From NCBI RefSeq assembly GCF_046105845.1, contig NZ_CP151004.1: 64,000 bases of DNA. One strand, given 5' to 3'. The DNA is from Escherichia coli (lineage in GTDB: Bacteria > Pseudomonadota > Gammaproteobacteria > Enterobacterales > Enterobacteriaceae). The position numbers were made by a program. Positions 34,501-37,500 of the stretch are shown one piece after another; the first letter of the stretch is position 1, and each line of letters starts with the position of its first letter.

Positions 34501-37500
34501 ACCGGTACCAGATCAGGAACCTGAGGCCTGATAACTGATAAGGGCAGGGCCACTGGCTCTGCCCTTTTGCTATTCTCACCGTAACGAATCAGCGGATACC
34601 ATGATTATCAAACGCACTCCTCAAGCCGCGTCGCCTCTGGCTTCGTGGCTTTCTTATCTGGAAAACCTGCACAGTAAAACTATCGATCTCGGCCTTGAGC
34701 GCGTGAGCCAGGTCGCGGCGCGTCTTGGCGTCCTGAAACCTGCGCCATTTGTGTTTACCGTTGCGGGTACGAATGGCAAAGGCACCACCTGCCGTACGCT
34801 GGAGTCGATTCTGATGGCGGCAGGGTACAAAGTGGGCGTCTACAGTTCACCGCATCTGGTGCGTTATACCGAGCGCGTACGTGTGCAGGGTCAGGAATTG
34901 CCGGAATCGGCCCACACCGCCTCTTTTGCGGAGATTGAATCGGCACGCGGTGATATTTCCCTGACCTATTTCGAGTACGGTACGCTGTCGGCGTTGTGGC
35001 TGTTCAAGCAGGCACAACTTGACGTGGTGATTCTGGAAGTAGGGCTGGGCGGTCGTCTGGACGCAACCAATATTGTCGATGCCGATGTCGCGGTAGTAAC
35101 CAGCATTGCGCTGGATCATACCGACTGGCTGGGGCCAGATCGCGAAAGCATTGGTCGCGAGAAAGCAGGCATCTTCCGCAGCGAAAAACCGGCAATTGTC
35201 GGTGAGCCGGAAATGCCTTCTACCATTGCTGATGTGGCGCAGGAAAAAAGTGCACTGTTACAACGTCGGGGCGTTGAGTGGAACTATTCCGTCACCGATC
35301 ATGACTGGACGTTTAGCGATGCTCACGGCACGCTGGAAAATCTGCCGTTGCCGCTTGTCCCGCAACCGAATGCCGCAACGGCGCTGGCGGCACTGCGTGC
35401 CAGCGGGCTGGAGGTCAGTGAAAATGCCATTCGCGACGGGATTGCCAGCGCAATTTTGCCGGGACGTTTCCAGATTGTGAGCGAGTCACCACGCGTTATT
35501 TTTGATGTCGCGCATAATCCACATGCGGCGGAATATCTCACCGGGCGTATGAAAGCGCTACCGAAAAACGGGCGCGTGCTGGCGGTTATCGGTATGCTAC
35601 ATGATAAAGATATTGCCGGAACTCTGGCCTGGTTGAAAAGCGTGGTTGATGACTGGTATTGTGCGCCACTGGAAGGGCCGCGCGGTGCCACGGCAGAACA
35701 ACTGCTTGAGCATTTGGGTAACGGCAAATCATTTGATAGCGTGGCGCAGGCATGGGATGCCGCAATGGCGGACGCTAAAGCGGAAGATACCGTGCTGGTG
35801 TGTGGTTCGTTCCACACGGTCGCACATGTCATGGAAGTGATTGACGCGAGGAGAAGCGGTGGCAAGTAAGTTTCAGAATCGGTTAGTGGGCACGATCGTG
35901 CTGGTGGCGCTGGGGGTGATTGTACTTCCAGGGCTGCTGGACGGGCAGAAAAAACATTATCAGGATGAGTTCGCGGCTATCCCGCTGGTGCCGAAAGCGG
36001 GCGATCGCGATGAGCCTGATATGATGCCAGCCGCCACCCAGGCGTTGCCGACGCAGCCGCCGGAAGGCGCAGCGGAAGAGGTGCGGGCAGGTGATGCCGC
36101 AGCACCGTCGCTCGATCCGGCCACTATTGCAGCCAATAACACCGAGTTTGAACCGGAACCTGCACCGGTCGTCCCACCGAAGCCGAAACCGGTGGAGCCG
36201 CCTAAGCCGAAGGTTGAAGCACCACCTGCGCCGAAGCCGGTCGTGGAAGAAAAAGCAGCGCCAACGGGTAAAGCCTATGTTGTACAACTGGGCGCACTGA
36301 AAAATGCCGATAAAGTGAATGAGATTGTCGGTAAGCTGCGCGGTGCCGGTTATCGGGTTTATACGTCGCCATCCACGCCAGTGCAGGGTAAAATTACCCG
36401 TATTCTGGTTGGGCCAGATGCCTCGAAAGATAAGCTGAAAGGATCGCTGGGTGAGTTGAAGCAACTTTCTGGCTTAAGTGGCGTGGTAATGGGCTACACG
36501 CCGAATTAATACGGTCTTGCCTGATGCGACGCTGGCGCGTCTTATCAGGCCTGCGCAGGAGTAGAACCGTAGGTCGGATAAGGCGTTTACGCCGCATCCG
36601 ACACGCATTGTCCGATGCCGCAAAGGCATAAAAAGTCGATGGCGTTGAATATTTTTTCAGCGCCATTTTTATTGATGCGCGGGAAGGAAATCCCTACGCA
36701 AACGTTTTCTTTTTCTGTTAGAATGCGCCCCGAACAGGATGACAGGGCGTAAAATCGTGGGACACATATGGTCTGGATTGATTACGCCATAATCGCGGTG
36801 ATTGCTTTTTCCTCTCTGGTTAGCCTGATCCGCGGCTTTGTTCGTGAAGCGTTATCGCTGGTGACATGGGGTTGTGCTTTCTTTGTTGCCAGTCATTACT
36901 ACACTTACCTGTCAGTCTGGTTTACGGGCTTTGAAGACGAACTGGTTCGAAATGGGATTGCCATCGCGGTACTATTTATCGCTACCCTGATCGTTGGTGC
37001 TATTGTGAACTTCGTGATAGGCCAGCTGGTGGAGAAAACGGGGTTGTCAGGCACCGATCGGGTGCTGGGCGTCTGTTTCGGTGCGTTGCGCGGTGTGTTG
37101 ATTGTTGCTGCCATTCTCTTCTTTCTCGACTCCTTTACCGGGGTGTCGAAAAGCGAAGACTGGAGCAAATCACAGCTGATCCCGCAGTTCAGTTTTATCA
37201 TCAGATGGTTTTTTGATTATCTGCAAAGCTCGTCAAGTTTCTTGCCCAGAGCGTAAGTGCTCTGAGATGTGGCTTAACGAGGAAAAAGACGTATGTGCGG
37301 TATTGTCGGTATCGCCGGTGTTATGCCGGTTAACCAGTCGATTTATGATGCCTTAACGGTGCTTCAGCATCGCGGTCAGGATGCCGCCGGCATCATCACC
37401 ATAGATGCCAATAACTGCTTCCGTTTGCGTAAAGCGAACGGGCTGGTGAGCGATGTATTTGAAGCTCGCCATATGCAGCGTTTGCAGGGCAATATGGGCA

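What the first reader, a model, noticed from the sequence alone, without database searches (positions are those of the whole stretch)
35859..36509. DedD proline-rich linker appears slightly shorter than the K-12 length I recall
With the GTG start, DedD is 216 codons here versus about 220 aa in my recollection of K-12. The difference would fall in the Pro/Lys-rich PKP repeat linker, a region prone to slippage. This is minor and rests on memory.
Basis: inference. Interest (0 to 1): 0.1.

Follow-up and report, generated by a model that had tools for sequence, protein, structure and literature searches.

The report
Common 4-residue-shorter DedD linker allele
The cell-division gene dedD in this window is four amino acids shorter than in E. 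coli K-12 because one 12-base repeat unit is missing from its floppy proline-rich tether, a common natural variant (about 8% of complete E. coli genomes) that is ordinary.

Summary
From the GTG start, dedD at window 35859-36509 encodes 216 aa. K-12 MG1655 dedD (b2314) encodes 220 aa from the same GTG. The only length difference is one in-frame 12-nt gap. K-12 reads GCG-CCGAAGCCAGAA-CCGAAGCCG-GTC and the window reads GCG-CCGAAGCCG-GTC, so four of the residues PKPEPKP (K-12 125-131) are lost. One substitution, A105V, also differs.

The gap lies in the linker that NMR showed to be disordered (K-12 residues 36-141). The transmembrane segment is identical to K-12's, and the SPOR domain matches Pfam equally well in both alleles.

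The allele is not rare. Junction-specific 46-mers find it in at least 419 of 5,426 complete E. coli genomes. RefSeq annotates the identical protein (WP_000157005.1) as DedD. The same 12-nt loss sits on at least four different dedD haplotypes, each matching a full-length counterpart, and also occurs in the E. albertii type strain. This points to recurrent slippage between the 8-nt direct repeats.

Other linker length alleles exist (204 and 219 aa). Across Enterobacterales and Vibrio, DedD ranges from 178 to 289 aa, almost entirely through the linker.

Verdict: a real, ordinary and probably neutral length polymorphism of low interest.

The parts
35859..36509 (+). dedD coding sequence with GTG start: 216 aa plus stop. 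This is the short allele of cell division protein DedD.
   Evidence: ORF and translation. 100% identical to the annotated dedD of E. coli ST2747, WP_000157005.1. Aligned to K-12 b2314.
35849..35853 (+). AGGAG Shine-Dalgarno-like motif 5 nt upstream of the GTG start. It lies inside the 3' end of folC, which ends at 35869, so folC and dedD overlap by 11 nt.
   Evidence: Read directly from the sequence. The same start and overlap are annotated in K-12. The orthologous start codon is GTG in 91 and ATG in 17 of the 108 complete DedD reading frames recovered.
35883..35939 (+). N-terminal hydrophobic membrane anchor (residues 9-27, LVGTIVLVALGVIVLPGLL), identical to K-12.
   Evidence: Alignment. Residues 1-35 are the best conserved part of the protein across Enterobacterales and Vibrio, with mean identity 0.89. 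The role of this region is cited in PMC7642682.
35964..36269 (+). Disordered Pro/Ala/Glu/Lys-rich periplasmic linker (window residues 36-137, equal to K-12 residues 36-141 minus 4).
   Evidence: NMR heteronuclear NOE data in PMC7642682 show that K-12 residues 36-141 are flexible. The construct of PDB 6ZTG aligns with the 4-residue gap in this segment. This is the least conserved and most gapped segment across orthologs.
36164..36211 (+). Two tandem 24-nt units encoding PV(V/E)PPKPK twice. This is the repeat-rich core of the linker, just upstream of the indel site.
   Evidence: Tandem Repeats Finder: period 24, 2.0 copies, 79% matches.
36231..36238 (+). Deletion junction: the single remaining CCGAAGCC copy where K-12 has CCGAAGCCAGAA-CCGAAGCC. 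The 12-nt loss can be placed anywhere within this 8-nt repeat. It removes four of K-12 residues 125-131 (PKPEPKP).
   Evidence: DNA alignment, repeat finder on the window and on K-12, multi-strain alignment.
36267..36488 (+). C-terminal SPOR domain (Pfam PF05036, window residues 137-210), which binds peptidoglycan. Its amino-acid sequence is unchanged relative to K-12.
   Evidence: hmmscan gives 47.3 bits and E about 2.6e-12 for both alleles. The alignment shows 100% protein identity over this part. Structure 6ZTG.

Best explanation
This is the ordinary cell-division gene dedD carrying a common natural length allele. One 12-nt period (CCGAAGCCAGAA, encoding PKPE or an equivalent register) of a short direct repeat has been lost in frame from the disordered proline-rich tether. 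That tether joins the membrane anchor to the SPOR domain, which binds peptidoglycan. The most likely mechanism is replication slippage, or an equivalent short-homology deletion, between the two CCGAAGCC copies that lie 12 nt apart. Within E. coli the 220-aa form is probably ancestral, and the 216-aa form has probably arisen several times independently. The change shortens a roughly 106-residue flexible linker by 4 residues and leaves the anchor and the SPOR domain intact, so it is expected to have no effect on function. Shown here: the length difference, its exact position, the repeat structure, its frequency and its spread across haplotypes. Inferred: the polarity, the independent recurrence and the neutrality.
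For: 216 vs 220 aa with one 12-nt gap. K-12 has CCGAAGCC three times with spacing 12 and 54 nt; the window has it twice with spacing 54 nt. The short junction occurs in 341 + 78 = at least 419 of 5,426 complete E. coli genomes, always chromosomal and always inside an annotated dedD. This agrees with the ranking, where 651-nt matches give way to 663-nt matches between the third and fourth of 40 evenly spaced rows, i.e. roughly between ranks 280 and 420. Short alleles lie on at least four haplotypes that differ by up to 17 SNPs, and several of them have a long allele as nearest neighbour: 1919D62 vs K-12, 6 SNPs; window vs EC1515, 7 SNPs; GPEC1042 vs APEC O78, 9 SNPs, and vs E-1246, 11 SNPs. Of 49 biallelic sites, 14 show all four gametes with the indel, including sites at -22, -25 and -33 nt and at +27, +30 and +33 nt. 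Among outgroups, E. whittamii and two divergent Escherichia genomes keep the unit (220, 220 and 219 aa), whereas the E. albertii type strain lacks it. The indel lies in the NMR-disordered region, K-12 residues 36-141 (PMC7642682). The SPOR Pfam score is identical in both alleles. Among the 108 complete DedD reading frames recovered from Enterobacterales and Vibrio, functional-length orthologs run from 178 to 289 aa. The N-terminus-to-SPOR distance varies from 117 to 212 aa, while the SPOR-to-C-terminus distance is almost fixed at 77 aa. Other E. coli linker alleles of 204 and 219 aa exist.
Against: No experiment here or in the searchable literature tests whether a 4-residue change in DedD's linker alters function. 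The key paper on DedD domain requirements (Liu et al. 2019, J Bacteriol) was not held. Independent recurrence is inferred from 17 sampled E. coli sequences, not from a whole-genome phylogeny. E. coli recombines, so mosaicism could mimic recurrence.
Confidence: 0.88

Rival explanations
1. The deletion happened once, long ago. Homologous recombination then moved it onto different dedD haplotypes, so the apparent recurrence is really mosaicism.
For: E. coli recombines frequently. The window's folC flank is closest to another short-allele strain (ETEC1738, 3 SNPs), while its dedD SNPs are closest to a long-allele strain (EC1515). That is a mosaic pattern. All sampled short alleles except LR-62-2 share the 258-nt dedD-cvpA spacer.
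Against: In 1919D62 the deletion is bracketed by K-12-type SNPs at -22 nt and at +27, +30 and +33 nt that no other sampled short allele carries. Importing only the deletion would need a conversion tract under about 50 nt. K-12 and APEC O78, both long, also have the 258-nt spacer. E. albertii, about 9% divergent, carries the same loss. The site is a perfect 8-nt direct repeat with a 12-nt period, which is a classic slippage substrate.
Confidence: 0.2
2. The 216-aa form is ancestral, and the 220-aa form carried by K-12 and most E. coli is a 12-nt tandem duplication. On this reading the event was an insertion, not a deletion.
For: The E. albertii type strain, the deepest Escherichia outgroup sampled, has 216 aa with the same unit absent. 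Slippage can add a repeat unit as easily as remove one.
Against: E. whittamii, the divergent genome L051 (220 aa) and E69 (219 aa) all carry both CCGAAGCC/KPEPKP units, and so do about 92% of E. coli. Short alleles are nested among long-allele haplotypes rather than the reverse.
Confidence: 0.1
3. The shorter linker is an adaptive adjustment of the reach of the SPOR domain across the periplasm, selected in particular lineages.
For: The allele reaches appreciable frequency (about 8%) and recurs. Tether length matters for some envelope-spanning proteins. That point rests on general knowledge and was not tested here.
Against: Four residues out of a roughly 106-residue disordered tether is under 4% of its length. 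Orthologs tolerate linkers from 117 to 212 residues before the SPOR domain. PMC7642682, citing Liu et al. 2019, reports that the SPOR domain itself is dispensable for DedD function. Carriers come from many hosts, including humans, swine, cattle, chicken, dog and frog-farm sediment, with no obvious ecological pattern.
Confidence: 0.04
4. The shorter length is a sequencing or assembly error, or results from choosing the wrong start codon.
For: The repeat-rich, GC-rich linker could in principle be mis-assembled. The ORF can also be extended to a TTG at 35841, giving 222 aa.
Against: An identical junction occurs in at least 419 independently finished genomes. K-12 uses the same GTG start, and the corresponding codon is GTG or ATG in all 108 complete reading frames recovered. 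The gap is internal, not at an end.
Confidence: 0.01

Closest known systems
E. coli K-12 DedD (b2314, UniProt P09549, PDB 6ZTG), a bitopic SPOR-domain cell-division protein
   Same: Same gene in the same folC-dedD-cvpA-purF context, with the same GTG start and the same 11-nt overlap with folC. The membrane anchor and SPOR domain are identical. 215 of 216 aligned residues are identical.
   Different: It lacks 4 residues (one PKPE-type unit, K-12 residues 125-131) in the disordered linker and has Val instead of Ala at position 105. There are also 13 silent DNA differences.
RefSeq WP_000157005.1, the 216-aa 'cell division protein DedD' of E. coli ST2747, PEC011, 7/2, EE72d, ES11, O139:H1 W13-16 and ETEC4068
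   Same: The window's dedD DNA is 100% identical to that of ST2747, which RefSeq annotates with this accession. The other strains listed carry the same accession.
   Different: Nothing at the protein level. Some of these strains differ from the window by 9-10 synonymous SNPs.
Other natural dedD linker length alleles: FDAARGOS_1284 (204 aa), E69 (219 aa), E. albertii NBRC 107761 (216 aa)
   Same: All are in-frame indels confined to the Pro-rich linker and flanked by short direct repeats: GC(C/A)CCACC for the 48-nt loss and CCACC for the 3-nt loss.
   Different: FDAARGOS_1284 and E69 have different units and positions. E. albertii has lost the same unit, but on a sequence about 9% divergent.
Slipped-strand length variation in Pro-rich periplasmic tethers (for example the FtsN and DamX linkers and the TonB X-Pro repeats). 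This comparison comes from general knowledge and was not tested here.
   Same: A low-complexity, proline-rich spacer whose length drifts by repeat-unit indels while the flanking functional domains stay conserved.
   Different: Only two copies of a 12-nt period are involved. The change is in frame and does not switch the gene on or off, so this is not a phase-variable contingency locus.

Membership tests
DedD (SPOR-domain cell-division protein of Enterobacterales) | C-terminal SPOR domain (Pfam PF05036) | tested here: met
   hmmscan: 47.3 bits against a cutoff of 21, residues 137-210, the same score as K-12.
DedD (SPOR-domain cell-division protein of Enterobacterales) | N-terminal single membrane anchor followed by conserved juxtamembrane residues | tested here: met
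   Residues 1-104 are identical to K-12, including LVGTIVLVALGVIVLPGLL. Residues 1-35 have mean identity 0.89 across the orthologs.
DedD (SPOR-domain cell-division protein of Enterobacterales) | Orthologous position between folC and cvpA-purF | tested here: met
   Window ORFs for folC at 34601-35869, cvpA at 36768-37256 and purF at 37293-38810. The order is the same in K-12 and ST2747.
DedD (SPOR-domain cell-division protein of Enterobacterales) | Near-identity to the experimentally characterised K-12 protein and structure | tested here: met
   215 of 216 aligned residues are identical. PDB 6ZTG matches at E = 6e-115.
DedD (SPOR-domain cell-division protein of Enterobacterales) | Septal localisation and contribution to constriction | not testable with these tools
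   Needs microscopy and genetics. Inferred from the identity of the functional regions.
Slippage-type in-frame indel between short direct repeats | The indel equals exactly one period of a direct repeat and its endpoints lie inside the repeat | tested here: met
   K-12 has CCGAAGCC copies 12 nt apart. Exactly 12 nt are missing and one copy is retained.
Slippage-type in-frame indel between short direct repeats | Recurrence (homoplasy) on independent backgrounds | tested here: inconclusive
   There are at least four haplotype backgrounds plus E. albertii, and four-gamete failures within 22-33 nt on both sides. Recombination is not formally excluded without a genome-wide phylogeny.
Phase-variable contingency locus (simple-sequence-repeat on/off switch) | A long homopolymer or multi-copy short repeat whose copy changes shift the reading frame or alter a promoter | tested here: not met
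   Only two copies of a 12-nt period are involved. Every observed length allele (204, 216, 219 and 220 aa) is in frame.

The most novel reading that the evidence does not exclude
The PKPE unit in DedD's tether is a recurrent slippage hot spot across the genus Escherichia: it was lost independently at least four times in E. coli and once in E. albertii. Under this reading, the recurrent 216-aa form is maintained at about 8% because tether length subtly tunes how the SPOR domain reaches denuded septal glycans or how DedD engages PBP1A and PBP1B.
Probability: 0.04. Interest if true: 0.25.

Novelty: already known. Interest (0 to 1): 0.05.

Why it matters
It matters very little. The result confirms that the gene is intact and correctly delimited, so annotators need not flag the 216-aa length as a truncation or an error. 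It also gives a small, clean example of homoplasic indels in a disordered linker. That is a caution against using this indel as a phylogenetic or typing marker, and a hint that DedD's tether length is under weak constraint.

Tried and rejected
1. Assembly artefact or wrong start codon. I rejected this because the same junction occurs in at least 419 finished genomes and the GTG/ATG start is conserved in all 108 complete reading frames recovered.

2. A lineage-specific single-origin marker. The sampled haplotypes do not support this.

3. A first count from a single junction 46-mer gave 341 genomes. This proved to be an undercount, because the GPEC1042-type junction (TCGAAGCC) cannot seed a 28-nt word. 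A second 46-mer added 78 genomes.

4. Reading Liu et al. 2019 (J Bacteriol, DedD domain dissection) for direct data on linker deletions. The paper is not held under its DOI or its PMC id, so I relied on its summary in PMC7642682.

5. A literature search for a described dedD length polymorphism returned nothing relevant.

Polarity therefore rests on E. whittamii, two divergent Escherichia genomes and E. albertii.

7. An inverted-repeat search of the downstream spacer with an 8-nt seed found nothing. A 6-nt seed showed the REP-like palindromes.

Full report
**1. The observation.**
The stretch 35859-36509 on the + strand is an open reading frame. From the GTG at 35859 it encodes 216 amino acids and ends in TAA. 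An AGGAG motif lies 5 nt upstream of the GTG. The start overlaps the end of the preceding folC ORF (34601-35869) by 11 nt. cvpA (36768-37256) and purF (37293-38810) follow. This is the canonical folC-dedD-cvpA-purF arrangement of E. coli.

I fetched the K-12 MG1655 record. There dedD (b2314, NP_416817.2) is 663 nt, or 220 aa, with the same GTG start and the same 11-nt overlap with folC.

**2. Where the difference lies.**
The protein alignment shows a single 4-residue gap and one substitution, A105V. Everything else is identical. The DNA alignment shows one 12-nt gap and 14 point differences.
- K-12 reads ...CCACCTGCG CCGAAGCCAGAA CCGAAGCCG GTCGTG...
- The window reads ...CCACCTGCG CCGAAGCCG GTCGTG...

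The missing 12 nt is therefore exactly one period of a direct repeat of CCGAAGCC. K-12 carries this octamer three times, with spacing 12 and 54 nt. The window carries it twice, with spacing 54 nt. Because the ends of the deletion fall inside the repeat, its position is ambiguous within window 36231-36238. At the protein level it removes four of K-12 residues 125-131 (PKPEPKP). Just upstream, Tandem Repeats Finder reports two 24-nt units (36164-36211) encoding PV(V/E)PPKPK twice, so the neighbourhood is repeat-rich.

**3. Which part of the protein is hit.**
Pfam finds one domain, SPOR (PF05036), at residues 137-210 of the window protein and 141-214 of K-12, with the same score of 47.3 bits. The only solved structure that matches is 6ZTG, E. 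coli DedD residues 28-220, and the 4-residue gap falls in its N-terminal non-domain part.

The paper describing that structure (PMC7642682) reports the following:
- NMR relaxation shows residues 36-141 to be flexible and residues 143-220 to form the SPOR fold.
- Citing Liu et al. 2019, the SPOR domain is dispensable, whereas the transmembrane region and adjacent periplasmic residues matter.

The indel therefore lies in the disordered tether, about 14 residues before the SPOR domain and about 100 residues from the functionally critical N-terminal part. That N-terminal part is identical to K-12's.

**4. How common the allele is.**
The full gene finds dedD once in 5,425 of 5,426 complete E. coli genomes. 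The best match is 100% identical (strain ST2747, CP007394), where the gene is annotated 'cell division protein DedD', WP_000157005.1. Matches of 651 nt give way to matches of 663 nt between the third and fourth of 40 evenly spaced rows of that ranking, i.e. roughly between ranks 280 and 420.

To count directly, I designed a 46-nt query across the junction (window 36212-36257). It can share at most a 27-nt exact word with the long allele, which is below megablast's 28-nt seed. It hit 341 genomes, always once, always on the chromosome and always inside dedD. A variant junction seen in strain GPEC1042 (TCGAAGCC) cannot be seeded by that query. Its own 46-mer hit a further 78 genomes. At least 419 of 5,426 genomes (7.7%) therefore carry a 216-aa DedD. 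Their sources include humans, swine, cattle, chicken, dog and frog-farm sediment.

**5. One origin or many.**
I fetched dedD with its flanks from 11 further short-allele strains and 7 further strains carrying other lengths, to add to the window, ST2747 and K-12. I aligned them together with the Escherichia outgroups. The 12-nt loss sits on at least four distinct dedD haplotypes that differ by up to 17 SNPs, and several of them resemble a full-length haplotype:
- Window/ST2747 type: nearest to EC1515 (7 SNPs) and O157:H7 (8 SNPs).
- 1919D62: nearest to K-12 in dedD (6 SNPs), folC (6) and cvpA (4).
- GPEC1042: shares the GAG-TCG variant with the long allele of E-1246.
- The PEC011, 7/2, EE72d, ES11, O139:H1 and ETEC4068 group: has its own CCG-AAA-CCG pattern.

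Among the 17 distinct E. coli sequences of 216 or 220 aa (ST2747 duplicates the window; the 204-aa allele was left out), 14 of 49 biallelic sites show all four combinations with the indel. These include sites 22, 25 and 33 nt to its left and 27, 30 and 33 nt to its right. In 1919D62 the deletion is bracketed on both sides by K-12-specific SNPs that no other sampled short allele has. To explain that by recombination, a conversion tract under about 50 nt would have to carry only the deletion. Independent recurrence at a slippage-prone repeat is the simpler reading. I did not build a genome-wide phylogeny, so recombination is not formally excluded.

**6. Polarity.**
- E. whittamii (220 aa), a divergent 'E. 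coli' genome L051 (220 aa) and E69 (219 aa) all keep both CCGAAGCC/KPEPKP units.
- The E. albertii type strain (216 aa) lacks one unit, on a sequence about 9% divergent.

About 92% of E. coli also carry the long form, and short alleles are nested among long haplotypes. So 220 aa is probably ancestral for E. coli and 216 aa derived, with a parallel loss in E. albertii. E. fergusonii, E. marmotae and Salmonella were not recovered, so this conclusion is an inference.

**7. Is linker length constrained?**
Other in-frame linker alleles turned up without being sought:
- FDAARGOS_1284 has a 615-nt, 204-aa dedD, with a 48-nt loss between GC(C/A)CCACC repeats.
- E69 has lost one ACC of CCACC.

The scan yielded 108 complete DedD reading frames from Enterobacterales and Vibrio. 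One of them, from Serratia symbiotica, stops after 33 codons and looks like a pseudogene. The others are 178-289 aa long. In the 96 of them where the start of the SPOR domain could be located by a sequence motif, the distance from the N-terminus to that point ranges from 117 to 212 residues, while the SPOR-to-C-terminus distance is 77 residues in 76 of them. Mean identity to K-12 is 0.89 for residues 1-35, 0.71 for the SPOR domain and only 0.36 for residues 91-141, which also has the highest gap fraction. A 4-residue change in this segment is well inside what evolution tolerates.

**8. Verdict.**
The feature is a real but ordinary allelic length polymorphism of a well-known gene, and the short protein is already catalogued in RefSeq. 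I found no paper describing it. It was most likely produced by slippage between 8-nt direct repeats, probably more than once, and is expected to be functionally neutral.

- **Not shown:** any phenotype. The primary domain-dissection paper was not available.
- **Interest:** very low. The only mildly notable point is that the indel is homoplasic, so it should not be used as a lineage marker.

Noticed in passing
L130:1701-2315 (E. coli FDAARGOS_1284, NZ_CP070170.1): dedD is only 615 nt (204 aa). A 48-nt in-frame loss in the same linker removes PKPKPVEPPKPKVEAP-type sequence between GC(C/A)CCACC direct repeats. RefSeq still annotates it as DedD.
   Followed up: partly
L098 (CP089930.1, 'E. coli' E69) and L007 (E. 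albertii NBRC 107761): E69 DedD is 219 aa, having lost one ACC of CCACC. E. albertii DedD is 216 aa with the same PKPE-type unit missing, and it has unusual Pro-to-Leu/Ser changes in the linker (KSVELLKLK). In dedD, E69 and L051 (SCPM-O-B-8794) show 50-63 and 62-73 SNPs against the sampled E. coli alleles, roughly 8-11%, although both are labelled E. coli.
   Followed up: partly
window 36510-36767 (dedD-cvpA spacer): The spacer contains two imperfect REP-like palindromes (36519-36550 and 36573-36602) arranged as an inverted pair. It also has a hairpin followed by a T-run (36639-36671) that looks like a terminator. Across the E. coli strains sampled, the spacer length varies (167, 235, 258, 440 and 531 nt), presumably through REP/BIME copy number.
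   Followed up: partly
L084 (Serratia symbiotica Sm Midelt, JAMDYG010000001.1): The dedD reading frame stops after 33 codons. It is probably a pseudogene in this endosymbiont.
   Followed up: no
window 35841-35858: The mechanical ORF extends upstream to a TTG at 35841 (222 aa). The GTG at 35859 is the annotated and conserved start: GTG in 91 and ATG in 17 of the 108 complete reading frames recovered. It is preceded by AGGAG at 35849-35853.
   Followed up: yes
window 36172 (dedD codon 105): Codon 105 is GTC (Val) where K-12 has GCC (Ala). This is the only amino-acid substitution. Both states occur in both short and long alleles (all four gametes at K-12 nt 314).
   Followed up: yes
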